Shown: piece by piece, positions 651-57,581 of the stretch
How positions within the stretch are numbered: position 1 is the stretch's first letter
Layout of the letters: each line of letters begins with the position of its first letter
Assembly (NCBI GenBank): GCA_025830695.1
Contig: GCA_025830695.1_4111.1
Origin: a phage
Strand: one strand, 5' to 3'
DNA: 64,000 nucleotides
Notes under the pieces: model-generated
Seen by the model: the letters and a program-made list of their open reading frames with translations, nothing else
Told to the model about the DNA's origin: nothing
Databases searched by the model: none
Made by a program: the position numbers and the translations under genes

Positions 651-3565
<2,915 letters not shown>

Positions 3566-6324: not shown

Positions 6325-6407
6325 AAGACTAAATGTTATACGTAAATATTTTTGATTTTTAATAATAAATAATCAAAAGTGTTTTGTATTATGGAGAAGA
6401 ATATACA

Positions 6408-6974
6408 ATGAACAATTTACTACAAGTATTTAAAATTGAAGTTGCAGGGACGAACCTAGATAATATCCCATATTATATGTATGGTGATTATGATTCATCT
6501 TCCCCAACAACCGCACCGACTGACCAGCAAACTATTGATAAGTCAATTGCACTTTTGCGTTACCTACAACTTTCTCGTTTGCTTTCAACTTATTCAGTAC
6601 CAGTTTATAGCAATGTTGAATTTGCTACACCAGGAACTGCAAAAACGATTCCAACTGGTGCAACAATCACCGTTGGATATATTAGTTATCAACCTTTTCT
6701 TAGTACTTTGAGTGTTGAAGAACAAGCAGCACTAACTACTGAAGATATGAAAACAGCAAAAGCTGCTGAGATTATCCAAACACTAATCAATGATTCATTG
6801 AAAGGTAATGGCACTAATGCACTAGAAAATGAAGAAATTACTGTACAAAAAACCATACAACGTATCAAGAATGCTCTTACTACGAGTACTGTTGATTTCA
6901 TTGAGTATGAGAACGTGTATCTTAATGTTCCTTCTGTTTCTGATGCATCTGTAGTATCTTACGTTAAATTATAA
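6408..6974 (+). CDS. hypothetical protein
   Basis: ORF in track (6384..6974); ATG 6408 has a GGAGAAG RBS. Confidence 0.5.
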   Translation: MNNLLQVFKIEVAGTNLDNIPYYMYGDYDSSSPTTAPTDQQTIDKSIALLRYLQLSRLLSTYSVPVYSNVEFATPGTAKTIPTGATITVGYISYQPFLSTLSVEEQAALTTEDMKTAKAAEIIQTLINDSLKGNGTNALENEEITVQKTIQRIKNALTTSTVDFIEYENVYLNVPSVSDASVVSYVKL

Positions 6975-8335: not shown

Positions 8336-10501
<2,166 letters not shown>

Positions 10502-10502
<1 letters not shown>

Positions 10503-11293
10503 TGCCAAGTAAGAGTAAAAGTCAGGCTAAATTCTTCGCAGCCGCCGCACACAATCCAGAATTTGCAAAGAAAGCTGGAATTTCACAAAGTGCTGCTAAA
10601 GAATGGAATGCCGCTGATGAAAAGGAAGGAAATCTTAAAAAAAGTTCTAAACTTCCTAATAAAGTAAAAGAAGCAAGTATGCGTAGTTTAGTCGATATTG
10701 TACAAGATGCAGAATTAGCTGATACAGACGACAGAACTTGTGATATAATGGATTCATGTGAAGACGACAAAGATAAGTTGGATGAAATGCCACAACGTTT
10801 CGATAGTTTTCAAGGTCAAGACCGAGACGAGTTTGTCGATAAAACTGCCGAAATGACAGGTAAGCACAACATGGTTAAGTTCGCAGAACATAAAGACTAT
10901 GATGTATATATGAACAAAAACGGTACTGGATTTATCGCTTACGATAAGTCTGGTAAACAGCTTGCTATAGTTAGTGGGCATTTATCCAATGATGCAGTAC
11001 TTGGTGTTCAAAACGTTTTTGAAATTGCCGCAACTGCTTCTAAAACTGGAACTAAAGGTATAATTTATAATATCTTTATGGATATGATATCACATGGTAT
11101 TAAAGTTCTGAGTGATAGTCTGCATACTGATGATGCGATTAAATTCTGGACCCGTTTAATTGGTTCCCATCAAGTTTATATTGTTGGTGGCGGTGAAGTA
11201 CTTGCAAAGGCGAGTCCAGATAAGGTTCATAAGTACTGGAGTGATGATGAATCAAGTCCAAGTGCCGAACTTCAACTTATGTTAGTAAAATAA
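10502..11293 (+). CDS. hypothetical protein
   Basis: 263-aa ORF; N-terminus MPSKSKSQAKFFAAAAH. Confidence 0.5.
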
Positions 11294-11296
11294 TAA

Positions 11297-11332
11297 TATA
11301 TCGGGACAAATCGTTCCGATATTTTTTTTTTT
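11297..11332 (+). terminator. rho-independent terminator
   Basis: TATCGGGAC/GTTCCGATA hairpin followed by T11. Confidence 0.7.
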
Positions 11333-11394
11333 GAGACAAACAAAACATTGGTGATACAATGTTTTATGACAAAGAGACATGATAAGGAATTCAA

Positions 11395-13370: not shown

Positions 13371-13393
13371 GGGGAACATGGTGTTCCCCTTTT
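13371..13393 (+). terminator. rho-independent terminator
   Basis: GGGGAACA/TGTTCCCC hairpin + TTTT. Confidence 0.65.
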
Positions 13394-13409
13394 ACCAAGA
13401 GACAATGGA

Positions 13410-14822
13410 ATGGCTAAAAGTAAAAAAACAGAAAATCATAATATCGATAACCAAACACTAACTCTACTAGATTATAACAGTTCTGATTATGTGAATACAA
13501 CATCACTAGAATATTCGATGTATACACTAGACCGTGCTATTCCTGGAATTGATGGTCTAAAGAGTTCACAACGTAAAGCAATCTTCACATTATCTAAAAT
13601 TAGTGGGGAAATTAAAACAGTATCATGTGCTGGAAAAATGATTAGTGATGGTATCTATCTTCATGGGGACACGTCAGCATCGGGAACACTTCAAAATCTA
13701 GCATCTCCAGTAGCTAACAACTATCCTCTTATTGGAAAACGTGGTGGTTTTGGTACACAAGTAAACAGTACACCAGCATCTGCTCGTTACACTTATGTTA
13801 AAAAGAATAAGAGTACTGAGATGCTTGTTTTGCGTGATGCTGATATTATACCAATGAAAGAGAACTATGACGGGACAACATATGAACCTGTTCATTTCTT
13901 GCCTATTATTCCATTATCATTGTTTGGTAATGATAGTATGTCAGTTGGTTATAAGAGTACAATTCTACCACATAAAATTGAAGATATTATTGATAATTGC
14001 ATTCGTGCTATTGATAAAAAACCACTAAAAGAAATGACCCCATATTATGTTTCATGTGGTGCAAGTGATGTTGTGACTAAGCTTGATGAAAATAAGTATG
14101 AATTCTATGGTAAAGCTGAGGTTATTGATGCAAGCACTGTTAAAGTAACAGGCTTACCACCTAATTACAGTATTGAGAAATTCATCGAAAAACTAATCAA
14201 AATGAGTGATGATGGTGAGATTCGTGATTATGACAATGATAGTACTGATGTAATTGATATTACCATTAAACTTCCACGTGGAACGTCAGCTAAATGGACA
14301 GAGATGGATGTTATTGAGTATTTTGGCATTAACAAAAAAATGACTCAACATTTAACTGTTCTAGGTGAAAATGGCAAAGTGAAAGTTTACGATACTACGA
14401 TGGATTTGATTAAAGACTTCGTTGATTTCCGTTTCAAATATTACATCAAGCGTTATGAAAAGAAACTTGATGATTGTGCTGCTGAAGTTCGTTATAAAAT
14501 TCTAATTAAAGAATGTTTCGATAATGATATGATTGCTAAGGTAAAAGGATTTGCAAACCGTGCTGAAATGGTTGAATTCGTTAAATCGTTAAATACCGAA
14601 ATTGAAGCGACGGAAGAGAATATTCAAAGCATTGTAAACTTCCCTTCATATCGCTGGACGCAAGATAATTATCAATCAGTACTACAAGATATTCAAGATA
14701 ATCTTGATTTGATGGATAAGTACAATGAACTGTTATCTAATCATGACTTAATTTGGGACATTTATAAATCTGAACTAAAAGAACTAAGAAAGATTGACTT
14801 TACTCCTAAATCAGACAATTGA
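13410..14822 (+). CDS. DNA topoisomerase II medium subunit (gp52-like, GyrA-type)
   Basis: YSMYTLDRAIPGIDGLKSSQRK matches the GyrA/ParC N-terminal signature. Confidence 0.85.
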   Translation: MAKSKKTENHNIDNQTLTLLDYNSSDYVNTTSLEYSMYTLDRAIPGIDGLKSSQRKAIFTLSKISGEIKTVSCAGKMISDGIYLHGDTSASGTLQNLASPVANNYPLIGKRGGFGTQVNSTPASARYTYVKKNKSTEMLVLRDADIIPMKENYDGTTYEPVHFLPIIPLSLFGNDSMSVGYKSTILPHKIEDIIDNCIRAIDKKPLKEMTPYYVSCGASDVVTKLDENKYEFYGKAEVIDASTVKVTGLPPNYSIEKFIEKLIKMSDDGEIRDYDNDSTDVIDITIKLPRGTSAKWTEMDVIEYFGINKKMTQHLTVLGENGKVKVYDTTMDLIKDFVDFRFKYYIKRYEKKLDDCAAEVRYKILIKECFDNDMIAKVKGFANRAEMVEFVKSLNTEIEATEENIQSIVNFPSYRWTQDNYQSVLQDIQDNLDLMDKYNELLSNHDLIWDIYKSELKELRKIDFTPKSDN

Positions 14823-14832
14823 TATATTTAAT

Positions 14833-14861
14833 GGAAGACCTTATGGGTCTTCCTTGTCCTT
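14833..14861 (+). terminator. rho-independent terminator
   Basis: GGAAGACC-TTAT-GGGTCTTCC hairpin + T-rich. Confidence 0.6.
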
Positions 14862-14863
14862 TA

Positions 14864-14871
14864 TATAAATA
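14864..14871 (+). promoter_or_regulatory. T4-late-type promoter box TATAAATA
   Basis: exact TATAAATA octamer about 40 nt upstream of ATG 14910. Confidence 0.45.
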
Positions 14872-14909
14872 ATCTATAGATAATGGCAGCTTGGCTATGG
14901 AGAATTATA

Positions 14910-17303
14910 ATGACAACTTTTACCCCACGATGGGATATAAAAGCCGATGCTCGATATATACAAGAAGGACAAGACATTCTTGTGCGTTTGAGTATCAATA
15001 AAGAAAGCACAACGGATGATAGCTATGTATTAAATGAAGATGAATACTTAGAAATGATTCTTAACATACAATGCTTGGATAGTTCAGGTGCTGTATTTGA
15101 TCCAGAACCACATTATACTTTTTATGTTGGTAATGACGAAAATACTTTTGTTCCTATTTCAGATGGTACAACTGGTAATAAATTAGTAAATGGTAAGCAT
15201 AAGTGTAAAATCAGCAAAAATGAATTTAACTTATCTGCAAGTACTAATAGTGAAGATGTTTATTTTATAAAAATTCATTGTAAAAATGATGGAACCTATA
15301 ATAATACAGAAATTATAAATTTTTATTTACAAGCAGTAAATGTTATGTATTTTGGAAATATTTCACCAAGTGGTGTTCTAGGATTAACTGATACATCAAT
15401 AACATATGATAGTCAAGAAGTTTGGGTTACACCCGGAGTTGAGATTGGTGATGACAAAAAGCTTTATTGTATTGGTGATGTTGAGTATGGCTCCAACAGT
15501 ACATTGTTCGTTCAAGGATTTGGAAGAAGACGACCTTTCATTTTGGGTACTGACATGACTACTGATATTACACCTCGTGTCTTTTTTCCAGCATATCGTT
15601 TGATTGACATGGATATTTCTGAAGTTCCAGATAAACATATTACGAATGATTTCGCAGTATTCAAGCCAGCACAATCAACATGGCCTATTTCTGGTATAAA
15701 CAAAGAAGTAAAAGTTAATATTCAAAATAGAAATGGTAATTTAATTGACACTGGAATGGTGTTCAACCCAAATGGGCAATTATTGCAAACATTTTTATAT
15801 GACTCAGATGCTTGTGATGCATATTTTAAAGTTGAGATTGTTGATATATTAAGTACATACACCGAAGAAAGTGAAAGGTTTGCTATCAATCAACGATATA
15901 AAGCATATCAAATGTGGGTTTGTCCTGAAGACATAGATACTATATATTCTATTTCAGAAAAACCACTACCCAATCATTTATATCAATTAAAAGATAATGT
16001 TGTGTATCCATACGTAATTAGTGGTGAATACGATAATGGAACAATTAAGCCCGTTTATGATAGTAGTGATTGGATTGATTTAGGATATTATGACTCTACT
16101 CTTGGTGATAATATCATTGGTATGCAAAAAATGTTCAGGGTTTTGATAAACGCAGAAGAAGGTAATAATATAAACTTTATTACTGATAGTGATTTAGGAA
16201 CCATACATGTTGGTGAATATTTTGGAGACAGTATATATCCTAAAATTGAAACTGATAGCTCTAATCAAGTTTCGTATGTTTTAGATGGTGGTGATGACAT
16301 TAGAAAGTATGGGATAGATTTGACACCAGATGGATATCTTGTAGGAACTGCATATGCCAAAAGTATTGATTTTAGTGAAAATGATGATATTAAATTATCG
16401 TTTTATGTTAAAGCATTTAGTACTGAAGGTGGTGAAGCAAGAAAAATATTTAACCTTAAGATTGTAAGAGGATTCGGACAGAATTATTTGAGTGCACATG
16501 TATTACCTTCGGTTGCATTTGAGAGAGAATGGTTTAAATGTATAAGTACTTCATCATTCACTAATCAACTATTTTTCCGACAATCTGACAATAGATATGG
16601 TCTTCAGAAAATACCGAAGATGTTATTGAAAGAAAACTTCCTAAGTCAAACGTATCCATATACTAACCTTTCTGATATCAAGAAAGTATTGAGAAATAGT
16701 ATAATTAACCCAAATGGAACTACTATTCCAAATGGAAAATTTAAAATGGTAATGGGTAATTATAAAATAATATCAGCACTTGACAATCAAGGTAACTTAC
16801 AATATGATCTATTATATAGAGAGGTTTTACCTGAAGGTTCTTTAGTATCTGTATCCAAAAATCCACGTCAATATACTCAAATCGACAACGGTCAGCTTGG
16901 TGAATTATTTGGTTTACGACAAAATATTTTTCAGGCTATTGGTGAAGACACAACCAACTTAGTAAAAGACCCAACCGATTTACAAAATCGTGGTCTATAC
17001 GTTGATGCGATACCAAGTATCAGTGATGAAATGCTTGATACGGTTCCAAGATTTATGAATCACCCATACATTGAAGATGGTATACAGAAAAAATTCATGC
17101 CTATCATTCCAGTTGCATATTGTCAACCAGGCAAAGGTGAAGCATTTTTCAACACTTTACTTCAGAACAATGAACATGGTACAATGGTAGGTGTAGAGTT
17201 CGAAATCACATCGGTTGAATTCGGATACTTTTCGCATGAATCAGTGAATTATGTTTCAGATACATTTTTGATTACATTGCAAAACAATAACATAGGAGGT
17301 TAA
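14910..17303 (+). CDS. large hypothetical protein, possibly a late/virion protein
   Basis: ORF in track (14883..17303); ATG 14910 has a GGAG RBS; preceded by a late-type promoter. Confidence 0.55.
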   Translation: MTTFTPRWDIKADARYIQEGQDILVRLSINKESTTDDSYVLNEDEYLEMILNIQCLDSSGAVFDPEPHYTFYVGNDENTFVPISDGTTGNKLVNGKHKCKISKNEFNLSASTNSEDVYFIKIHCKNDGTYNNTEIINFYLQAVNVMYFGNISPSGVLGLTDTSITYDSQEVWVTPGVEIGDDKKLYCIGDVEYGSNSTLFVQGFGRRRPFILGTDMTTDITPRVFFPAYRLIDMDISEVPDKHITNDFAVFKPAQSTWPISGINKEVKVNIQNRNGNLIDTGMVFNPNGQLLQTFLYDSDACDAYFKVEIVDILSTYTEESERFAINQRYKAYQMWVCPEDIDTIYSISEKPLPNHLYQLKDNVVYPYVISGEYDNGTIKPVYDSSDWIDLGYYDSTLGDNIIGMQKMFRVLINAEEGNNINFITDSDLGTIHVGEYFGDSIYPKIETDSSNQVSYVLDGGDDIRKYGIDLTPDGYLVGTAYAKSIDFSENDDIKLSFYVKAFSTEGGEARKIFNLKIVRGFGQNYLSAHVLPSVAFEREWFKCISTSSFTNQLFFRQSDNRYGLQKIPKMLLKENFLSQTYPYTNLSDIKKVLRNSIINPNGTTIPNGKFKMVMGNYKIISALDNQGNLQYDLLYREVLPEGSLVSVSKNPRQYTQIDNGQLGELFGLRQNIFQAIGEDTTNLVKDPTDLQNRGLYVDAIPSISDEMLDTVPRFMNHPYIEDGIQKKFMPIIPVAYCQPGKGEAFFNTLLQNNEHGTMVGVEFEITSVEFGYFSHESVNYVSDTFLITLQNNNIGG

Positions 17304-17304
17304 T

Positions 17305-17616
17305 ATGTTTAATCCGTTTTTTGACCCGTCTGGAATGACGGAAAAAGAACTACAGTTAAAAATTAATGAACAGTCAATGCGTTTAACTTCTGCTCGTGCT
17401 GCTGGCCTAAGCGACATGATTATTGGTAATATGCAAACTGTCTTAAATCAATGTTATGCTGAACTAGAACTTCGCCAAGGACAAAAAGAAAAAACTGTTT
17501 ATGACGAAGAAGACCCATGTATCTTCGATATGGATTCATATCTAACTGACAACGAAGAGGCCCAGAAGAAGAAAAATGAAAGTACAAGGAAACAGATTTA
17601 TAAGTCCCAATGGTGA
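17305..17616 (+). CDS. hypothetical protein
   Basis: 103-aa ORF. Confidence 0.45.
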   Translation: MFNPFFDPSGMTEKELQLKINEQSMRLTSARAAGLSDMIIGNMQTVLNQCYAELELRQGQKEKTVYDEEDPCIFDMDSYLTDNEEAQKKKNESTRKQIYKSQW

Positions 17617-18094
17617 TGTGAAATGTAATCTTAACGCAGTTGTTTATGCAATCAATTGCGGTGCAGATATCCAGTACTTACAATTGCAGGAAATTGATGA
17701 ACCTGAAAGGTTGAAATTCAATGATAACTGTAAAAAATTTGGCTTAGAACAACGTATGCTGGATTATACAATTGAGCATGATAAAAATCATGAACTGTGG
17801 CGATATGATCCAGTATACGACAATATAAATCTGCGTGACTTTTTCTTACAAAAATGCACATCCGATGAAGCACGAAAACGTGTTGAGTATGAACTTGATT
17901 TATATGAATATTATAATATGACAAAGCTACTAAGATGTATGATATGGCTTGTTGATTATATGGAAGAAAATGAGATCTTTTGGGGTCTAGGTCGTGGAAG
18001 CTCTGTTGCATCATACTGTTTGTTTTTGATTGGACTACATATGGTAGATTCATTGAAGTACGAACTTGATGTTAACGAATTTTTGAAATGGTAG
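17576..18094 (+). CDS. DnaE (Pol III alpha)-like fragment protein
   Basis: C-terminal YELDLYEY...LLRCMIWLVDYM...GLGRGSSVASYCLFLIGLHMVDSLKYELDVNEFL parallels the DnaE segment ...FLIV.EFI.W....GPGRGSAAGSLVAY.LGITD.DPL.F.LLFERFL; the ORF stops before the catalytic aspartates. Confidence 0.5.
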   Translation: MKVQGNRFISPNGDVKCNLNAVVYAINCGADIQYLQLQEIDEPERLKFNDNCKKFGLEQRMLDYTIEHDKNHELWRYDPVYDNINLRDFFLQKCTSDEARKRVEYELDLYEYYNMTKLLRCMIWLVDYMEENEIFWGLGRGSSVASYCLFLIGLHMVDSLKYELDVNEFLKW

Positions 18095-18112
18095 AAAAAC
18101 ATGTGATATAAT
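18083..18112 (+). promoter_or_regulatory. sigma-70-like promoter (TTGAAA-18-TATAAT, TG-extended)
   Basis: TGTGATATAAT extended -10. Confidence 0.45.
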
Positions 18113-18157: not shown

Positions 18158-18502
18158 ATGTCTAAACATACAACTTATCGTGGTACAACAATTGACATGG
18201 ATATGCTCAAGTACCAAAATCAACATCAGGTAGCATTAGGTAATGCTAATTTAAACGCACGTGGTGATAAAATCGGTTCAGGTGGAACAATTATTAAAAC
18301 TCGTGAAGAGTTGATTCAAGAAAAAGAACGAGAAATGCAAATTCCTGATTATATCCCTGAACATCAACTTCATAGTACTGAACATGGTACGGATGAAGTA
18401 TGGGATGATGAGAGTTTTGAAGTTAAGCCCGAAGAACAAGAAGCTGAGGTTTCTGAAGAGAAGAAAGCACCACGTCGAGCTAGAACCAAAGATCAGGAGT
18501 AA
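18158..18502 (+). CDS. hypothetical acidic protein
   Basis: 114-aa ORF. Confidence 0.5.
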   Translation: MSKHTTYRGTTIDMDMLKYQNQHQVALGNANLNARGDKIGSGGTIIKTREELIQEKEREMQIPDYIPEHQLHSTEHGTDEVWDDESFEVKPEEQEAEVSEEKKAPRRARTKDQE

Positions 18503-18510
18503 TATATTAA

Positions 18511-18837
18511 ATGACTAATAAAGTAATGACTGCATGTAAAGGTAAAGTACTGGTAACTGAACTGGAACATGGTGAACGCAAAACAGCAGGTGGTATCGTT
18601 TTAACAAACGATGACGGTAAAATTAGAGGTATTCGTTCTCGCTGGGCAAAAGTTTATTCTGTAGGCGAAGACATTACTGATATTAAAGAAGGTCAATGGA
18701 TTTTAATTGATCATGGTCGATGGTCAAGAACTATTGAAGTTGATGGTATTGAATTAAACTTGGTTGATTATCCAGCCGCAGTTAGTTTAGTTTCAGATGA
18801 AGATCCACGAACTAAAATGCTAACCTTTGGTCGTTAA
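18511..18837 (+). CDS. co-chaperonin GroES-like (gp31 functional analogue)
   Basis: GKVLV...E.KTAGGIVLT core and overall length match Cpn10. Confidence 0.65.
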   Translation: MTNKVMTACKGKVLVTELEHGERKTAGGIVLTNDDGKIRGIRSRWAKVYSVGEDITDIKEGQWILIDHGRWSRTIEVDGIELNLVDYPAAVSLVSDEDPRTKMLTFGR

Positions 18838-20802: not shown

Positions 20803-20862
20803 TTGTATTTTAAAAGTAGTAAATAGTATTATATGTGCTAGTTTTTAAGGATAATATAAAAT

Positions 20863-21426
20863 ATGGACGATTTAGATTATACAGATAATGCTATTCAGCA
20901 GTTGTATGATAACAGTGGTATGTTAGATATACTTCTTGCTGTAGAGAAATATTTCGATGATAATGATTTATATGCGTATAAAGGAATTATTGAGGGTGAG
21001 TTGGTAGAGGGGCCAATTGTAAGTAAGTATTGGTGTACTGTTACATTTAAATACTATCGTGAAAATTTTCCCGATCCTACCGCATTCTCTATTTTAGAGA
21101 AACATGGAACTAAAGTATATGTTAAAGCTGATTATGAAATAACTCCTATTAAAGAACCAAATCGTCAAGCTGACATGAAAAGTGTAGCGACACAATCTGG
21201 CTCTGTACGTATACCAAAAAATGAAAGAATCCCAGTACTATTGGTTAGAGTGCAGATTCCACGAAACTTGATTAATCCAGAAAGTTTTGATGAATATAAA
21301 CTAATGGCAGCAGAATTCAATAGTAATCCAATGAATTCTCCTGAGAATATTGAAGAACCTGTAACTGGTGATGATGTGGATTTGGATGTAGAAGTAACGG
21401 ATGAGACACAAGAAGGTGGAATGTAA
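20863..21426 (+). CDS. hypothetical protein
   Basis: 187-aa ORF. Confidence 0.5.
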   Translation: MDDLDYTDNAIQQLYDNSGMLDILLAVEKYFDDNDLYAYKGIIEGELVEGPIVSKYWCTVTFKYYRENFPDPTAFSILEKHGTKVYVKADYEITPIKEPNRQADMKSVATQSGSVRIPKNERIPVLLVRVQIPRNLINPESFDEYKLMAAEFNSNPMNSPENIEEPVTGDDVDLDVEVTDETQEGGM

Positions 21427-22106
21427 TGAAAAAGAAATTAAATGAACAAGGCTTACGTCCGCAAGTTCTCAAAGATTTGATTCATCCTATCATTAGTGTT
21501 GATGAATATACTCCTAAAATTGAAGATAGTAATATTGTTATTATGTTTCAGGTACTTAACAACTTTGATGCAGCATATGATTTATCTTCTTTTATTGAAA
21601 AATCACCTATTGACGTAGTTGATACTGAAGCAGCAGAAACACCAAATCTAGATGGTCGTTATCAAGTTTATGTAGAAATGGAACGAAATGCTGAATTCCC
21701 AGAAAAACTATTACGTTTAATTAAAACAATTGAAAATATTTGCCCAGACCCTGGTTGGAAAATCCAACTATATGGTGTTAATGATCCAATCGATGTTGAT
21801 TTTGAAGAAATACAGCAGAGAATTGATTTGGGTATTCCTAGTTCAATTAGTGAGTTTCTTGATTACGCTGGTGTTTCAGTAATCAAAGAAGGAAACATGT
21901 TGACATTAAAAACAGCATATGGTAAATTACATTACAGTACTGGAAGCGGTTTTGTTTCAGAAACATATGTGAAAAAGTTATTAAAGAATGATACACAATT
22001 AGACACTTCGCGTCTTAGTTCCATACTAGGGGAAAGCTATACAGTACTACGAAGTGGTGATCAATATGTAATTGGAAGAAACGGGAAATATTTGGTGTTG
22101 CGATGA
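21426..22106 (+). CDS. hypothetical protein
   Basis: 226-aa ORF, ATGA-coupled to the upstream ORF. Confidence 0.5.
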   Translation: MKKKLNEQGLRPQVLKDLIHPIISVDEYTPKIEDSNIVIMFQVLNNFDAAYDLSSFIEKSPIDVVDTEAAETPNLDGRYQVYVEMERNAEFPEKLLRLIKTIENICPDPGWKIQLYGVNDPIDVDFEEIQQRIDLGIPSSISEFLDYAGVSVIKEGNMLTLKTAYGKLHYSTGSGFVSETYVKKLLKNDTQLDTSRLSSILGESYTVLRSGDQYVIGRNGKYLVLR

Positions 22107-45527: not shown

Positions 45528-45863
<336 letters not shown>

Positions 45864-45864
45864 A

Positions 45865-46047
45865 ATGACACACGAAGAATGGATGTCCAAACAGCATAAA
45901 GAACATGACTGCTTTGGGAATGGCATTCGTCAGGTACATTATGATATATTAAGAGATGAAAATCTTTTCAGGTCATATGTTTTGGATACCAGAAAACCCT
46001 GGTTTATATGCGAACTGGCATTTAGAAAGTCAAATAATCAAAACTAA
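45865..46047 (+). CDS. MTHEEW-family small protein (copy C)
   Basis: internal ATG of track ORF 45847..46047. Confidence 0.5.
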   Translation: MTHEEWMSKQHKEHDCFGNGIRQVHYDILRDENLFRSYVLDTRKPWFICELAFRKSNNQN

Positions 46048-46063
46048 ACAAGGAATACAAAAA

Positions 46064-46282
46064 ATGGAAACAACTTTATTTGAAGTTATTCAATCATTAA
46101 AACCTGAAGATGAGGTTCAAGTACTACTACATGGTTATCGTGTAAAAGGTACTGTGGTTTTAGTCAATGATACAACATTGGTTATTACAGAAACAAACCC
46201 ATATGATAGTAATCAACTTGCCAATATCCATATCGATATCACTGGAATTATTGGTGTCGGTGTATCTAAAACACTTGCATAA
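46064..46282 (+). CDS. hypothetical protein
   Basis: internal ATG of track ORF 45956..46282 with AAGGAAT RBS. Confidence 0.45.
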   Translation: METTLFEVIQSLKPEDEVQVLLHGYRVKGTVVLVNDTTLVITETNPYDSNQLANIHIDITGIIGVGVSKTLA

Positions 46283-46335
46283 ATCATTAATTCATTATAT
46301 AATGATTATCACTGGTTCTAGATGAGGATAATATT

Positions 46336-46608
46336 ATGCATTTTGAAAAATTCAACGTAAATCGTAACACACGCATTGAAGTTCTTTATGAAACTCAAGA
46401 CACCATTAGTATTCGTACAAGTAGTGGGGATGTATATCATGACTGTACGATTGGCTGGGAACAGGGAAGGACGCGTAGTGCAGTATTTGATAATTATCGC
46501 TTTTATCAAGGAGACACTACGATTTGGCCTGAATACGTAGAAGATATTGCGTTTGAAGATGAACATAAAGATGAATTTATCAAATTTAATCCTCAAACTG
46601 AATCATAA
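46336..46608 (+). CDS. hypothetical protein Confidence 0.45.
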   Translation: MHFEKFNVNRNTRIEVLYETQDTISIRTSSGDVYHDCTIGWEQGRTRSAVFDNYRFYQGDTTIWPEYVEDIAFEDEHKDEFIKFNPQTES

Positions 46609-46612
46609 ATAA

Positions 46613-46742
<130 letters not shown>

Positions 46743-46745
46743 AAT

Positions 46746-46846
<101 letters not shown>

Positions 46847-46848
46847 CA

Positions 46849-47009
<161 letters not shown>

Positions 47010-47013
<4 letters not shown>

Positions 47014-47170
47014 CACATGAAGAATGGATGAATGACATTAATTTTAGATATTCGGGTATCGGTAAATGGCTAAAGTATCATTGGGAATTCATTTCAGAGC
47101 CACATCTGTATGATAAACTTATCAACGATCCAGCATATGAAATGTACTTAATTGAACTACTGGTACGATT

Positions 47171-47174
<4 letters not shown>
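47010..47174 (+). CDS. MTHEEW-family small protein (copy E)
   Basis: near-identical to copy D over the first third; ATGA-coupled. Confidence 0.45.
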
Positions 47175-47336
<162 letters not shown>

Positions 47337-47344
47337 AAAAAAAG

Positions 47345-47758
<414 letters not shown>

Positions 47759-47815
47759 CTAAATAATTCAGTACTGAGGATATTAATATGTTTAAAGATG
47801 AACGTCCAGATTTGT

Positions 47816-47853
<38 letters not shown>

Positions 47854-47857
47854 GAAT

Positions 47858-48201
47858 TCCACAATCAGACGTATATGGTGTAAGTTACGTCGATGCAATC
47901 CAGAACAAGATCTCTGGTACTCTAGGAAGTGGTGAATGTTAACCTAGACGGGTTTGATAATTGGACGATAGGCAATTATTACTTGACTAGCAGGTTTAAA
48001 CTAGAGGTGACTATCCTTCACCAAACTGGAAAACCGGATGGACTTTTATTTAAAAGGGTAAGGCGTGGAAATATGTTTACAGAAGTTGCTTTTAGTAGCC
48101 TGTACGCCCCACGTCAAGGTAGCCGAAAGGCAAGTTAAGACGGGTGGTTATAAAGCTGAATTAACAGCGGCGTTTAAAAGCGTCACCATCCATTTTTTTT
48201 T
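47858..48201 (+). ncRNA. candidate structured non-coding RNA
   Basis: ORF-poor, GC-richer stretch between a promoter and a hairpin + T-run; long-range complementarity (GGTGAA...TTCACC), GAAA tetraloop CCGAAAGG. Confidence 0.35.
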
Positions 48202-48217
48202 AATTAAAGTTGGTGAT

Positions 48218-49027
<810 letters not shown>

Positions 49028-49051
49028 ACGAAATTACAATAGGAAATTAAA

Positions 49052-49237
49052 ATGCAACTTTTAATTCTTTCAATATTGTATATTATTATAATGGTTCCGA
49101 TATCAATACGTTTAATTACACTTGAACGATTTTTATCGAAACATGGAAATAGATCTATGATCTTAGTACCAATCGGGCTTATATTGTTTGGTATTTTTGC
49201 ATTTATAATGGGAATTAACGCTACATTCATTTCATAG
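49052..49237 (+). CDS. small membrane protein
   Basis: 61-aa two-helix hydrophobic ORF. Confidence 0.45.
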   Translation: MQLLILSILYIIIMVPISIRLITLERFLSKHGNRSMILVPIGLILFGIFAFIMGINATFIS

Positions 49238-49246
49238 GAAACAAAT

Positions 49247-49504
<258 letters not shown>

Positions 49505-49512
49505 GAATTTAA

Positions 49513-49914
49513 ATGAAAAAGAATGACTTGATCAAAATGCTTCAAGAAATTGACGGCAATCCAGAGATTGTTATTTGGAATGGATACGTCGATGATTATA
49601 TGAACATCGAAAAAGGCTTGACTAAAATCACTCTAGTCAAAGAAACCGAACAGTTTCTTCAGGGTGCATTAGAGCACGAATGGTGTGAACGTAACAATAC
49701 ATTCGACATTCCAGAAGACCAACGAACCAAGATTGCAGAACGTGCTAAAGAACTGCATAAGAAACGTGAATACGATTTCCAGAACCCATATGTCACTGAA
49801 GACGAATTCAATCGCTGGTACGGTAAAAAGAAATTGATAAAGTATGTCCTTTCACCTAAACTACGTGGTAAGACTTCACTTGGTGTATTCAACGCCGCAG
49901 ACTTAAACTACTAA
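49513..49914 (+). CDS. hypothetical protein Confidence 0.5.
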   Translation: MKKNDLIKMLQEIDGNPEIVIWNGYVDDYMNIEKGLTKITLVKETEQFLQGALEHEWCERNNTFDIPEDQRTKIAERAKELHKKREYDFQNPYVTEDEFNRWYGKKKLIKYVLSPKLRGKTSLGVFNAADLNY

Positions 49915-49926
49915 GAGAGTATTTAA

Positions 49927-50694
<768 letters not shown>

Positions 50695-50696
50695 TA

Positions 50697-50753
<57 letters not shown>

Positions 50754-50838
50754 AGTAAGAGTAAAAATGAAAGTAAGTAAAAAAACTACCAAGCAGCTTG
50801 AAGAACTTTGTAGTGCTGCACCTATGCCGACTCTTGGC

Positions 50839-50939
<101 letters not shown>

Positions 50940-50951
50940 TATCTTACTTCT

Positions 50952-51041
<90 letters not shown>

Positions 51042-56338: not shown

Positions 56339-56367
56339 AGCCACTACAATGTAGTGGCTTTTTTTAT
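56339..56367. terminator. bidirectional rho-independent terminator
   Basis: GCCACTACA-ATG-TAGTGGC flanked by A/T runs, between convergent genes. Confidence 0.7.
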
Positions 56368-57521
56368 TATGCGTTGTAACCAACTATTACGACTGAGCAG
56401 TCAAGCGGTTCTACTACTTTAAGAATTACATTATCATCTTCATCCACTTGTATTTCACTATGAACTACATGATTGTCTGAAGAATATAATTGAACTTGTG
56501 GTAGTGCTTTACCATGTTCAGTTACTGGAACTGAGATAGAGTACATAGAGTCTTCACCGAGAACCCACTCACTTAAAGTATATTCTTTATGGAAAGGAGT
56601 AGTATGCAGTGTTTTTCCGATTATACTCAAAGAAACAGGTAAATTGTCAGTTTGATACACAGTAATATTACCTTCTGCGTCTACAGAAAGATCTACACCA
56701 ACTTGATATAAGTCACCACTGTATGCTTGAAGTGCTAAGTACTGTCCACGATCATGAACATCAAATGGAACAACCGCAGAAAATACACCTTCCGAAACAG
56801 GTTCAAATTGGGATAGAAGAACTGATGTAACAAAATCAATATCCTCACCACTTTCAAGAACATCAAATTCCACCACTTTAGTGTTATAATATGGAGAAGT
56901 GAGTGTAGCAGTACCTTTTCCTGATTGTGTGATAACATCAACTGGAATTGTAAATGCATCATTAACAAATTGGGTAGTAAAGTATTCTGTTCCGTCTGGT
57001 AATACGATTGTTATTACCATACCGTTAGTATCAATTTCTGAACCAGTATTGAATAATTTACCACTAATTGAGTCATTACCAACAAATACTGGTGAAATGA
57101 GAATATTATCTATATCACGATCTATAATACCACATTCAGGTGTATACATATGATACAAGGTTTGTGAACTACCTAAAATTGTTCTATGTAGCATGAATTT
57201 ATATACAAATCCAGTATCAGTTTCTTGTGGCTCTTCAGAATATCCACGAACAAAGAAACAATTTTTATTAATTTCACTTAATAGTTGGTCATTAGTTTTA
57301 TTGTAATTTAATAGATAACCTTTATTATCTTTAGTTGTTATTTGTACTTTACGATATATTATATTAGTTCTTGGATCAACTAAATCATATAATCTATGGC
57401 TTCTTTGGCGATAGATTCTAATATTTTTTAGTCTAGTTCCATCATTGAGGATTGCACCATCAACAACATAACCACATTCACCAAACTTATAGCGTCCAGC
57501 CGCAGCAATTGACCTTGACAT
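56367..57521 (-). CDS. hypothetical protein (the only sizeable minus-strand gene in this stretch; possibly structural)
   Basis: 384-aa ORF; ATG with GGAGGG RBS on the minus strand. Confidence 0.6.
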   Translation of the reverse strand: MSRSIAAAGRYKFGECGYVVDGAILNDGTRLKNIRIYRQRSHRLYDLVDPRTNIIYRKVQITTKDNKGYLLNYNKTNDQLLSEINKNCFFVRGYSEEPQETDTGFVYKFMLHRTILGSSQTLYHMYTPECGIIDRDIDNILISPVFVGNDSISGKLFNTGSEIDTNGMVITIVLPDGTEYFTTQFVNDAFTIPVDVITQSGKGTATLTSPYYNTKVVEFDVLESGEDIDFVTSVLLSQFEPVSEGVFSAVVPFDVHDRGQYLALQAYSGDLYQVGVDLSVDAEGNITVYQTDNLPVSLSIIGKTLHTTPFHKEYTLSEWVLGEDSMYSISVPVTEHGKALPQVQLYSSDNHVVHSEIQVDEDDNVILKVVEPLDCSVVIVGYNA

Positions 57522-57581
57522 TTATCCCTCCATTGGTATAATTATTATAACGTATTTATTATGCATATCCAAAAAATGAGC

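What the first reader, a model, noticed from the sequence alone, without database searches (positions are those of the whole stretch)
14864..17303. Late-type TATAAATA promoter ahead of an 806-aa ORF inside an early-gene neighbourhood
The only exact TATAAATA octamer I found on the plus strand lies just after the terminator of the topoisomerase gene and before a large ORF. If it is a functional late promoter, this large protein is expressed late and may be a virion or morphogenesis protein inserted among replication genes.
Basis: partly seen in the sequence, partly recalled or inferred. Interest (0 to 1): 0.45.

Follow-up and report, generated by a model that had tools for sequence, protein, structure and literature searches.

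The report
Late promoter before virion protein gene
Both this type of signal and the protein's presence in phage particles were already reported for this phage group, so the finding is correct but ordinary.

Summary
The window comes from an Asteriusvirus-type jumbo coliphage, 99.9% identical to PBECO4, phAPEC6 and G17. The octamer TATAAATA (14864-14871, +) is real. It follows the terminator hairpin of the topoisomerase II medium-subunit gene and lies 38 nt before the true start codon (ATG 14910; 797 aa, not 806).

One copy is not above chance. The evidence for function is elsewhere:
- TAAATA is the only invariant block in this intergenic region across 11 genomes whose proteins are only 40-54% identical.
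- In 200 kb of phAPEC6, 9 of 12 TATAAATA copies are intergenic, and all 9 lie 16-56 nt upstream of a co-directional gene, including the major head and scaffold genes.
- ATAAATA upstream is 9-fold enriched for mass-spectrometry-confirmed virion genes (p=8e-7).
- The motif is strongly depleted inside genes.
- The phage group encodes a gp55-like late sigma factor.

The identical protein (phAPEC6 gp158c) was found in virions by MS, as were its RaK2 and GAP32 orthologues.

Late timing has not been measured. The protein models as tandem beta-sandwich domains plus a domain with a 2H-phosphoesterase-like fold. This is a known kind of feature and of low interest.

The parts
11332..11360 (+). Middle-type promoter-like site (TGAGAC-N14-TGATACAAT) upstream of the topoisomerase II large-subunit gene. 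It is the likely source of any read-through transcription into the locus.
   Evidence: Read from the sequence. It resembles the 'TGAAACG...TGnTATAAT' class predicted upstream of DNA-synthesis genes in phage CBB, including the CBB topoisomerase gene (Porf_324).
13410..14822 (+). Topoisomerase II medium-subunit gene (upstream neighbour).
   Evidence: ORF. Annotated in SHEFM2K, G17 and phAPEC6.
14833..14853 (+). Intrinsic-terminator-like hairpin (GGAAGACC-TTA-TGGGTCTTCC) followed by a T-rich tail at 14854-14863.
   Evidence: Terminator scan. RNA fold. Annotated by ARNold as a terminator, -14.0 kcal/mol, in the G17 record. A hairpin with a different sequence occupies the same position in all 10 relatives.
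14864..14871 (+). TATAAATA, a T4-type late-promoter-like -10 element. The conserved core is TAAATA (14866-14871). The transcription start is inferred at about 14877-14878.
   Evidence: Pattern search. TAAATA is the only invariant block in the 11-genome intergenic alignment. The same motif and spacing occur upstream of head, scaffold, sheath and baseplate genes in phAPEC6. The site ranks 7th of 127,954 window positions with a matrix built from 24 other virion-gene sites. The start-site position is inferred from T4 biology and was not tested.
14899..14902 (+). Shine-Dalgarno sequence GGAG, 7 nt before the ATG at 14910.
   Evidence: Read from the sequence. GGAG is present at the same place in 10 of the 11 genomes; RaK2 has GGGAG further upstream.
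14910..17303 (+). Gene for a 797-aa (90.3 kDa, pI 4.6) virion-associated protein, equal to phAPEC6 gp158c, RaK2 ORF160, GAP32_321, CBB_326 and 121Q gp54. The model shows tandem beta-sandwich domains followed by an alpha/beta region (about residues 520-797).
   Evidence: Full-length match to PHROG 13911. 100% identical to phAPEC6 gp158c, which was detected in virions by MS. Mass matches the published value. AlphaFold2 model pLDDT 84. Fold searches.
17305..18094 (+). Two downstream genes with no terminator-like site before them, so probably co-transcribed: a 103-aa ORF (17305-17616, PHROG 15348) and a PolIII-alpha-like fragment (17576-18094).
   Evidence: ORFs. Annotation. PHROG match. The scan found no terminator-like site between 14854 and 18760. 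Co-transcription is inferred.
6364..6371 (+). Sister site AATAAATA, 36 nt before the gene at 6408-6974 (phAPEC6 gp167c, MS-confirmed virion protein).
8359..8366 (+). Sister site GATAAATA, 29 nt before the gene at 8396-8941. That gene is followed by two MS-confirmed virion protein genes (8931-10502 = gp162c; 10502-11293 = gp161c).
20818..20825 (+). Sister site AGTAAATA (the same G variant as RaK2), 37 nt before 20863-21426 and 21426-22106 (gp150c and gp149c, both MS-confirmed virion proteins).
57553..57559 (-). Sister site ATAAATA on the minus strand, 31 nt before the divergent gene 57521..56367 (phAPEC6 gp077, MS-confirmed virion protein).

Best explanation
The window is part of an Asteriusvirus-type (RaK2-like) jumbo myovirus of E. 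coli.

TATAAATA at 14864-14871 is one of several dozen T4-type late promoters in this genome. It is a lone -10-like element with no -35 box. It is probably read by host RNA polymerase carrying the phage's gp55-family late sigma factor.

The intrinsic terminator immediately upstream (14833-14853) ends the middle-phase topoisomerase transcript. Most expression of the next gene would then start about 6 nt after the octamer, late in infection. This would give a leader of about 32 nt with a GGAG ribosome-binding site and the ATG at 14910.

The product is a 797-aa acidic protein that is built into, or packaged with, the virion.

Shown: the position of the motif, its cross-genus conservation, its genome-wide association with virion genes, its avoidance inside genes, the presence of the sigma gene in a near-identical phage, and (from published MS) virion association of the identical protein.

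Inferred: that the site is active, that it is gp55-dependent, that it fires late, the exact start site, and where the protein sits in the particle.
For: Identity of the phage: 99.9% DNA identity to PBECO4, SHEFM2K, G17 and phAPEC6.

Conservation: in 11 genomes with 40-100% protein identity, the intergenic region always reads hairpin, T-run, (N)TAAATA, a 22-35 nt leader, GGAG, ATG. TAAATA is the only invariant block. It is preceded by A in 10 of 11 genomes and by G in RaK2.

Genome-wide placement in phAPEC6 (200 kb):
- TATAAATA occurs 12 times. Nine copies are intergenic, although only 14.6% of bases are intergenic.
- All nine lie 16-56 nt upstream of a co-directional start codon: gp158, major head gp225, scaffold gp226, gp238, gp323, endonuclease VII gp234, gp214, gp232 and gp242.
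- ATAAATA at -75 to -25 occurs before 16 of 48 MS-virion genes against 10 of 192 others (odds ratio 9.1, p=8e-7).
- TAAATA occurs before 25 of 48 against 25 of 192 (p=4e-8).

Avoidance inside genes (observed vs codon-shuffle expectation):
- ATAAATA sense 10 vs 35; antisense 2 vs 68.
- TAAATA antisense 24 vs 161.

In the window, all four intergenic ATAAATA sites with 29-38 nt spacing precede MS-confirmed virion genes or operons.

A gp55-family sigma factor is present: phAPEC6 gp237c matches PHROG 234 'late sigma transcription factor' (E=8e-18).

Published precedent: an ATAAATA late promoter was predicted upstream of structural genes in CBB and GAP32 (PMC5259590).

Virion status: gp158c had 9 unique peptides and 17.1% coverage (PMC7247149). 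Orthologues were MS-positive in RaK2 and GAP32.

No sigma-70-like or middle-type promoter fits between the terminator and the ATG.
Against: - There is no transcript or 5'-end data for any member of the group, and my searches found none.
- In T4, late transcription also needs gp33 and the gp45 sliding clamp. The CBB paper reports no gp33 or gp45 homologue, and the RaK2 paper lists gp45 and gp62 as the exceptions among the replisome proteins it discusses. The mechanism may therefore differ from T4.
- The sigma gene lies outside the window and was checked only in a near-identical relative.
- The full octamer is not conserved. Positions 1-2 vary (TA, CA, AA, AG).
- The CBB authors' MEME list of 35 sites omits the orthologous site.
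- TAAATA also occurs inside sigma-70-like early promoters such as TTGACTAAATA...TATAAT, so the hexamer alone is not diagnostic.
- The terminator tail is imperfect (TTGTCCTTTAT), so read-through from the upstream middle-type promoter may also express the gene earlier.
- Virion MS also picked up replication proteins (topoisomerase subunit, SSB, RecA-like, thymidylate synthase), so MS detection is not fully specific.
- The orthologue was not detected in CBB virions.
Confidence: 0.78

Rival explanations
1. The gene is expressed with the topoisomerase genes as a middle-phase read-through transcript from the promoter-like site at 11332-11360. The two hairpins (13371-13389 and 14833-14853) act only as attenuators, and the TATAAATA is incidental.
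For: - A middle-type site lies upstream of topoII-large (class described in CBB).
- No promoter-like site is visible in the roughly 50 nt between the two topoisomerase genes even though a hairpin sits there, so some read-through must occur at that hairpin.
- The T-tail after 14853 is interrupted.
- The gene order is fixed across genera.
Against: - This does not explain why TAAATA is the only invariant block of the intergenic region in 11 genomes.
- It does not explain why the same motif at the same spacing precedes head, scaffold, sheath and baseplate genes.
- It does not explain why the motif is purged from coding DNA.
- Read-through may add to late-promoter activity but is unlikely to replace it.
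Confidence: 0.1
2. The octamer is the -10 box of an ordinary host sigma-70 promoter (TATAAT-like), and the gene is early.
For: - TATAAA and TAAATA each differ from TATAAT by one or two bases.
- The consensus scan finds many sigma-70-like sites in this AT-rich DNA.
Against: - No acceptable -35 hexamer lies 16-18 nt upstream, and the scan lists no site that uses this -10.
- The real sigma-70-like promoters of this genome have clear TTGACT -35 boxes and TATAAT -10 boxes.
- The genes carrying the motif are overwhelmingly virion genes.
Confidence: 0.04
3. The octamer is a chance AT-rich string in an AT-rich spacer (33% G+C) or simply part of the terminator's U-tract region.
For: - One + strand copy is fewer than expected by chance.
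- Intergenic DNA here is very AT-rich.
Against: - Cross-genus invariance.
- 9 of 12 copies are placed upstream of genes.
- Fisher tests.
- Three- to thirty-fold depletion in genes.
- In GAP32, CBB, BF and Yen9-04 the motif lies 15-20 nt beyond the T-run, so it is separable from the terminator.
Confidence: 0.03

Closest known systems
Bacteriophage T4 late promoters (TATAAATA, read by E. coli RNA polymerase with gp55, gp33 and the gp45 sliding clamp)
   Same: - The same octamer, acting as a lone -10-type element with no -35 box.
- It lies a few tens of nt before virion and morphogenesis genes.
- A gp55-family sigma factor is encoded.
- The motif is avoided inside genes.
   Different: - Only the TAAATA core (mostly ATAAATA) is conserved here.
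- The sigma factor is 279 aa, with an N-terminal extension of about 120 aa ahead of the gp55-like part.
- The CBB paper reports no gp33 or gp45 homologue, and the RaK2 paper lists gp45 and gp62 as exceptions among the replisome proteins.
- Activity has not been tested.
Predicted late promoter 'Promoter 3' (ATAAATA) of RaK2-like phages CBB and GAP32 (Buttimer et al. 2017, PMC5259590; that paper cites Abbasifar et al. 2014 for GAP32)
   Same: - The same phage group, the same motif, and the same association with structural genes.
- The same three-class promoter scheme: RpoD-like early, TGAAACG..TATAAT middle, ATAAATA late. All three classes are recognisable in this window.
   Different: - That work covered the genus Mimasvirus and listed 35 sites, without the orthologue of this one, although CATAAATA is present there.
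- Here the site is in an Asteriusvirus.
- Here it is supported by cross-genus footprinting, enrichment against an MS proteome and depletion statistics.
PHROG 13911 virion structural protein family: phAPEC6 gp158c, PBECO4, 121Q gp54, RaK2 ORF160, GAP32_321, CBB_326, BF gp324
   Same: - Full-length HMM match.
- 100% identical to gp158c.
- The same position between the topoII-medium gene and a small ORF plus PolIII-alpha-like gene.
- MS-detected in phAPEC6, RaK2 and GAP32 virions.
   Different: Nothing material. It is the same protein. Its place in the virion and its function are unknown in every member.
2H phosphoesterase superfamily (LigT/ThpR, Usb1, CPDase, AKAP7 central domain, viral Acb1 and ns2 phosphodiesterases). 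Fold-level resemblance of one domain only.
   Different: - The canonical pair of H-x-T/S-x motifs is absent. The putative first-motif strand is an invariant L-L-K-E-N, and the second is E-H-x-(S/A/T) with H in 45 of 49 sequences.
- There is no sequence-profile similarity.
- The comparison rests on a predicted model.

Membership tests
T4-type (gp55-dependent) late promoter | TATAAATA-like -10 element with no -35 element | tested here: met
   Exact octamer at 14864-14871. The scan lists no -35/-10 pair that uses it.
T4-type (gp55-dependent) late promoter | The motif class lies upstream of late (virion and morphogenesis) genes across the genome | tested here: met
   phAPEC6, 200 kb: 9 of 12 octamers lie 16-56 nt before co-directional genes, including the major head and scaffold genes. 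ATAAATA: odds ratio 9.1, p=8e-7 against the MS virion proteome.
T4-type (gp55-dependent) late promoter | The phage encodes a gp55-family late sigma factor | tested here: met
   phAPEC6 gp237c matches PHROG 234 'late sigma transcription factor' (E=8e-18) and PHROG 12791. The gene lies outside the window, so it was checked in the 99.9%-identical relative only. No Pfam or PDB sequence hit.
T4-type (gp55-dependent) late promoter | Activation by co-activator gp33 and the DNA-loaded sliding clamp gp45 (coupling to replication) | not tested
   Not searched here. The CBB paper reports no gp33 or gp45 homologue, and the RaK2 paper lists gp45 and gp62 as exceptions among the replisome proteins.
T4-type (gp55-dependent) late promoter | Transcription starts a few nt downstream of the octamer, late in infection | not testable with these tools
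   Needs 5'-end mapping over an infection time course. My literature searches found none for this group.
PHROG 13911 / RaK2 ORF160-like virion structural protein | Full-length sequence similarity to the family | tested here: met
   HMM match over residues 1-796 to profile positions 1-788 of 789, 1467.7 bits. 71 homologues at 40-89% identity.
PHROG 13911 / RaK2 ORF160-like virion structural protein | Conserved position after the topoisomerase II medium-subunit gene | tested here: met
   Same position in 10 relatives from Asteriusvirus, Alcyoneusvirus, Mimasvirus, Eneladusvirus and unclassified phages.
PHROG 13911 / RaK2 ORF160-like virion structural protein | Physical presence in purified virions | not testable with these tools
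   Taken from the literature. The identical phAPEC6 gp158c was detected by ESI-MS/MS. RaK2 and GAP32 orthologues were MS-positive and the CBB orthologue was not.
2H phosphoesterase superfamily (one domain, probably C-terminal) | 2H fold | tested here: met
   [not shown]
2H phosphoesterase superfamily (one domain, probably C-terminal) | Two catalytic H-x-T/S-x motifs | tested here: not met
   Only one partial candidate exists: H756-x-S/A/T, with H in 45 of 49 sequences. H530 is conserved in 15 of 49. The strand expected to carry motif 1 is an invariant LLKEN. The mapping of motifs to strands is inferred, because no residue-level structural alignment was available.
2H phosphoesterase superfamily (one domain, probably C-terminal) | Sequence-profile similarity to a 2H family | tested here: not met
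   - No Pfam 2H family at E<=1.
- No PDB hit with the family profile.

The most novel reading that the evidence does not exclude
Probability: 0.08. Interest if true: 0.6.

Novelty: new member of a known kind. Interest (0 to 1): 0.2.

Why it matters
The direct importance is small. The result confirms that in Asteriusvirus jumbo phages a short T4-like late signal, with core TAAATA and usually ATAAATA, marks virion-protein genes even where they lie among replication genes. This gives annotators a cheap way to flag likely late or virion genes among the roughly 80% of genes with no assigned function, and to define transcription units of the form terminator then late promoter.

It also points to two open questions that are not specific to this site:
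- How late transcription works in a phage group with a gp55-like sigma factor but no recognisable gp33 or sliding clamp.
- What a conserved 90-kDa virion protein with a 2H-like domain does.

Tried and rejected
- **Over-representation of the octamer in the window.** Rejected. The octamer is depleted (3 vs 12.8; ATAAATA 14 vs 43.7). Depletion inside genes turned out to be informative instead.
- **The 806-aa reading.** Rejected in favour of the start at 14910.
- **A sigma-70 or middle-type promoter between the terminator and the ATG.** None found.
- **Sequence-family assignment of the protein.**
  - Pfam gave only a sub-threshold DUF6656 hit (E=0.0085).
  - NCBIfam and PADLOC gave nothing.
  - The PDB profile search gave nothing.
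- **Sequence-level link to 2H enzymes.** None.
- **Pfam and PDB sequence match for the gp55-like sigma factor.** None. Only PHROG profiles detect it.
- **Literature search for a transcriptome or high-resolution virion structure of a RaK2-like phage that would time the gene or place the protein.** None found.
  - phiKp24 is a different phage group.
  - The PA5oct paper does not mention late promoters or a TATAAATA motif.
- **Weight matrix beyond the TAAATA core.** Flanking positions carry little information, apart from an A six nt downstream in 19 of 24 sites. This site has T there.
Full report
**What the window is.** The region 13400-17700 is 99.8-99.9% identical to about 19 jumbo coliphages of roughly 350 kb (PBECO4, SHEFM2K, G17, phAPEC6, slurp01 and others). 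Those with an ICTV assignment in the records fetched are classified as Asteriusvirus. The group belongs to the RaK2-like phages.

**The observation.** TATAAATA is at 14864-14871 on the + strand and is the only + strand copy. Two more copies lie on the - strand. The octamer is not over-represented: 3 copies against 12.8 +/- 4.1 expected. The heptamer ATAAATA occurs 14 times against 43.7 +/- 6.5 expected. By count alone, one copy means nothing.

The site lies 10 nt after a terminator-like hairpin (14833-14853, 9-bp stem, T-rich tail). In the G17 record this hairpin is annotated as a -14.0 kcal/mol ARNold terminator. It follows the stop codon of the topoisomerase II medium-subunit gene (13410-14822).

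**The true start codon.** The 806-aa ORF (14883-17303) is the mechanical ORF. The real start is ATG 14910:
- GGAG lies at 14899-14902.
- Every annotated relative starts there.
- The upstream ATG is absent in JNE01.
- The 797-aa product has a calculated mass of 90.30 kDa, the figure published for phAPEC6 gp158c.

**Is the octamer functional? Four independent lines of evidence.**

(i) Phylogenetic footprint. I fetched the orthologous locus from ten relatives: fEgEco12, JNE01, RaK2, Hallingskeid, Munch, XaC1, GAP32, CBB, BF and fHe-Yen9-04. Their orthologous proteins are 40-80% identical to this one.
- In every genome the intergenic region reads hairpin, T-run, (N)TAAATA, a 22-35 nt leader, GGAG, ATG.
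- In the alignment TAAATA is the only invariant block. It is preceded by A in 10 of 11 genomes and by G in RaK2.
- The hairpins differ in sequence but keep their pairing.
- In GAP32, CBB, BF and Yen9-04 the motif lies 15-20 nt beyond the T-run, so it is not part of the terminator.

(ii) Genome-wide placement. I used 200 kb of phAPEC6 (record positions 50001-250000), whose upstream sequence at this gene is identical to the window.
- TATAAATA occurs 12 times. Nine copies are intergenic, although only 14.6% of bases are intergenic.
- All nine lie 16-56 nt upstream of a co-directional start codon. The genes are gp158c (this gene), major head protein gp225c, scaffold gp226c, virion proteins gp238 and gp323c, endonuclease VII-like gp234, gp214c, gp232 and gp242.
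- NTAAATA at the same spacing precedes the tail sheath, baseplate wedge, neck, prohead protease, tail-fibre and many other virion genes.

(iii) Association with the experimental virion proteome (Table 1 of PMC7247149).
- ATAAATA at -75 to -25 is found before 16 of 48 MS-detected genes against 10 of 192 others (odds ratio 9.1, p=8e-7).
- TAAATA is found before 25 of 48 against 25 of 192 (p=4e-8).
- Several 'non-MS' genes with the motif are the first genes of operons that contain MS-detected genes (gp163c, gp247) or are plausible late genes (endonuclease VII; gp242, which lies just upstream of the gp25-like gp243).

(iv) Avoidance inside genes (observed vs codon-shuffle expectation).
- ATAAATA, sense strand: 10 vs 35.
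- ATAAATA, antisense strand: 2 vs 68.
- TAAATA, antisense strand: 24 vs 161.

This is the pattern expected for a short sequence that can by itself direct transcription.

A weight matrix built from 24 other virion-gene sites ranks the site at 14866 seventh of 127,954 positions in the window. Almost all of the information in that matrix is in the core.

**The transcription machinery.** phAPEC6 gp237c (279 aa, annotated 'sigma factor for late transcription') matches PHROG 234 'late sigma transcription factor' at E=8e-18 over residues 125-262. It has no Pfam or PDB sequence match. This gene lies outside the window.

The paper on the related phage CBB predicted three promoter classes with MEME:
- RpoD-like early promoters.
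- TGAAACG...TATAAT promoters, mostly upstream of DNA-synthesis genes.
- ATAAATA upstream of structural genes. The authors compared this class to the T4 late promoter and said it is also predicted in GAP32.

The same paper noted a gp55-like sigma factor but no gp33 or gp45 homologue (PMC5259590). All three classes can be recognised in this window:
- Sigma-70-like TTGACT...TATAAT sites near 47.3-47.9 kb.
- Middle-type sites at 699-727, 11332-11360 (before topoII-large) and 18084-18112.
- The late-type sites listed below.

No sigma-70-like or middle-type site fits between the terminator and the ATG at 14910.

**The protein.** It matches PHROG 13911 'virion structural protein' end to end. It matches no Pfam, NCBIfam or PADLOC family.

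It is 100% identical to phAPEC6 gp158c. That protein was detected in purified virions with 9 unique peptides and 17.1% coverage. The CBB paper's comparison table records the orthologues GAP32_321 and RaK2 ORF160 as MS-positive and CBB_326 as not detected.

The gene's position after topoII-large and topoII-medium, followed by a small ORF, a PolIII-alpha-like gene, a hypothetical gene, a GroES-like gene, another hypothetical gene and the clamp loader, is conserved across most of the group. XaC1 has unannotated genes after the first hypothetical, and fEgEco12 and JNE01 do not annotate the small ORF. The gene is therefore an old resident of the locus, not an insertion.

Virion genes are scattered throughout these genomes (legend of Fig. 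2 in PMC7247149). In this window the other intergenic late-type sites are:
- 6364-6371, before gp167c.
- 8359-8366, before the gp163c-gp162c-gp161c operon.
- 20818-20825, before gp150c and gp149c.
- 57553-57559 on the minus strand, before gp077.

All of these precede MS-confirmed virion genes.

**Predicted structure.** An AlphaFold2 model built from a 49-sequence alignment has mean pLDDT 84.2 and pTM 0.48, as expected for a multidomain chain.
- Foldseek against the PDB returns strings of beta-sandwich domains: cadherins, S-layer proteins and bacterial adhesins. Whole-chain TM-scores are low, so this is a domain-level resemblance.
- Foldseek against predicted viral structures returns the orthologues, then 'Ig' proteins of uncultured phages and tail or fibre proteins.

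From the secondary structure I place the 2H-like domain at about residues 520-797. The defining pair of HxT/S motifs is not conserved:
- H530 is present in only 15 of 49 sequences.
- The strand expected to carry motif 1 is an invariant LLKEN (residues 572-576).
- Only E755-H756-x-(S/A/T) resembles a motif.
- No sequence-level similarity to 2H families is detectable.

I therefore treat this as a fold resemblance, probably non-catalytic, and do not file the protein as a 2H enzyme. Its location in the particle is unknown.

**Most likely mechanism.** The topoisomerase genes are probably transcribed from the middle-type site at 11332-11360. The hairpins at 13371-13389 and 14833-14853 attenuate or stop that transcript. 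Late in infection, host RNA polymerase carrying the gp55-like sigma factor would start about 6 nt after TATAAATA. By analogy with T4, from my own knowledge, that start is near 14877. The resulting mRNA would have a leader of about 32 nt and encode the 797-aa virion protein. It probably continues through 17305-18094, and possibly on to the GroES-like gene, because the scan finds no terminator-like site before about 18760.

Activity, timing, sigma dependence and start site are all inferred. Some read-through expression at earlier times cannot be excluded.

**Verdict.**
- The protein is 797 aa, not 806.
- The gene is not an insertion.
- The neighbourhood is a replication (middle-type) region rather than early.
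- The octamer's significance comes from context and not from its count.

Both elements belong to known kinds. The late-promoter class was already predicted in sister genera, and the protein is already annotated and MS-verified as a virion protein. The specific site is not annotated in the records I examined and is missing from the CBB list, so it is at most a new member of a known class. Interest is low.

Noticed in passing
window, throughout; exact TCAGTACTGA at e.g. 19998, 32171, 32961, 47768, 47838, 50386, 50507, 52307, 52342: The palindrome CAGTACTG is strongly over-represented.
- TCAGTACTG with up to 1 mismatch: 115 matches vs 13 +/- 4 expected.
- Exact CAGTACTG: 25 vs about 3.
- AGTACT: 133 vs about 50.
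- TCAGTACTGA: 9 vs about 0.4.

It occurs both inside ORFs and between genes. Its function is unknown; it could be an operator, a methylation site or a nuclease-related site.
   Followed up: partly
window 47345-47375, 47754-47790, 47824-47860 (+): Three near-identical sigma-70-like promoters (cTTGACTAAATAgTTCAGTACTGaTATAAT). The spacer of each contains both a TAAATA and the CAGTACTG palindrome. They show that TAAATA alone is not diagnostic of a late promoter. They correspond to the sites upstream of phAPEC6 gp092c and gp093c.
   Followed up: partly
window 699-727, 11332-11360, 18084-18112 (+): Middle-type promoter-like sites (TGRRAY-N14-TGnTAYAAT) of the class predicted in CBB and GAP32. They lie upstream of a gene at about 755, the topoisomerase II large-subunit gene and the gene at 18158.
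   Followed up: partly
window 45527, 46605, 50880 (+): ATAAATA lies 16, 40 and 71 nt upstream of tRNA-Gly (45550), tRNA-Ser (46652) and tRNA-Thr (50958). These are three of the six tRNA genes in the window (45550-51031). Some tRNAs may therefore be made late. The site at 46605 is also followed by a TGATATAAT extended -10 sequence.
   Followed up: no
[not shown]
   Followed up: partly
window 13410-14822: In the published proteome, the topoisomerase II medium subunit (phAPEC6 gp159c) was itself detected in virions, with 2 peptides and 8.1% coverage. SSB, a RecA-like protein and thymidylate synthase were also detected. These are either packaged replication proteins or carry-over contamination.
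   Followed up: no
window 18511-18837; phAPEC6 131653-131952 (L015 31653-31952, minus): The phage carries two GroES-like genes. One lies downstream in the same terminator-free stretch as the 797-aa gene. The other (gp213c) lies behind gp214c, which has an exact TATAAATA 56 nt upstream.
   Followed up: no
L006 2501-5530 (Serratia phage BF gp324); also the Erwinia pEa_SNUABM phages: Eneladusvirus orthologues from Serratia and Erwinia phages are about 1009 aa. Their tblastn matches split into two pieces, which points to an insertion of about 220 aa relative to the 797-aa form. Yersinia phage fHe-Yen9-04 lacks it.
   Followed up: no
L016 5118-5957 (minus), phAPEC6 gp237c: The gp55-like late sigma factor is 279 aa. 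Only residues 125-262 match the T4-type family profile, so there is an N-terminal extension of about 120 aa with no known relatives. Published work on sister phages reports no gp33 or gp45 homologue.
   Followed up: partly
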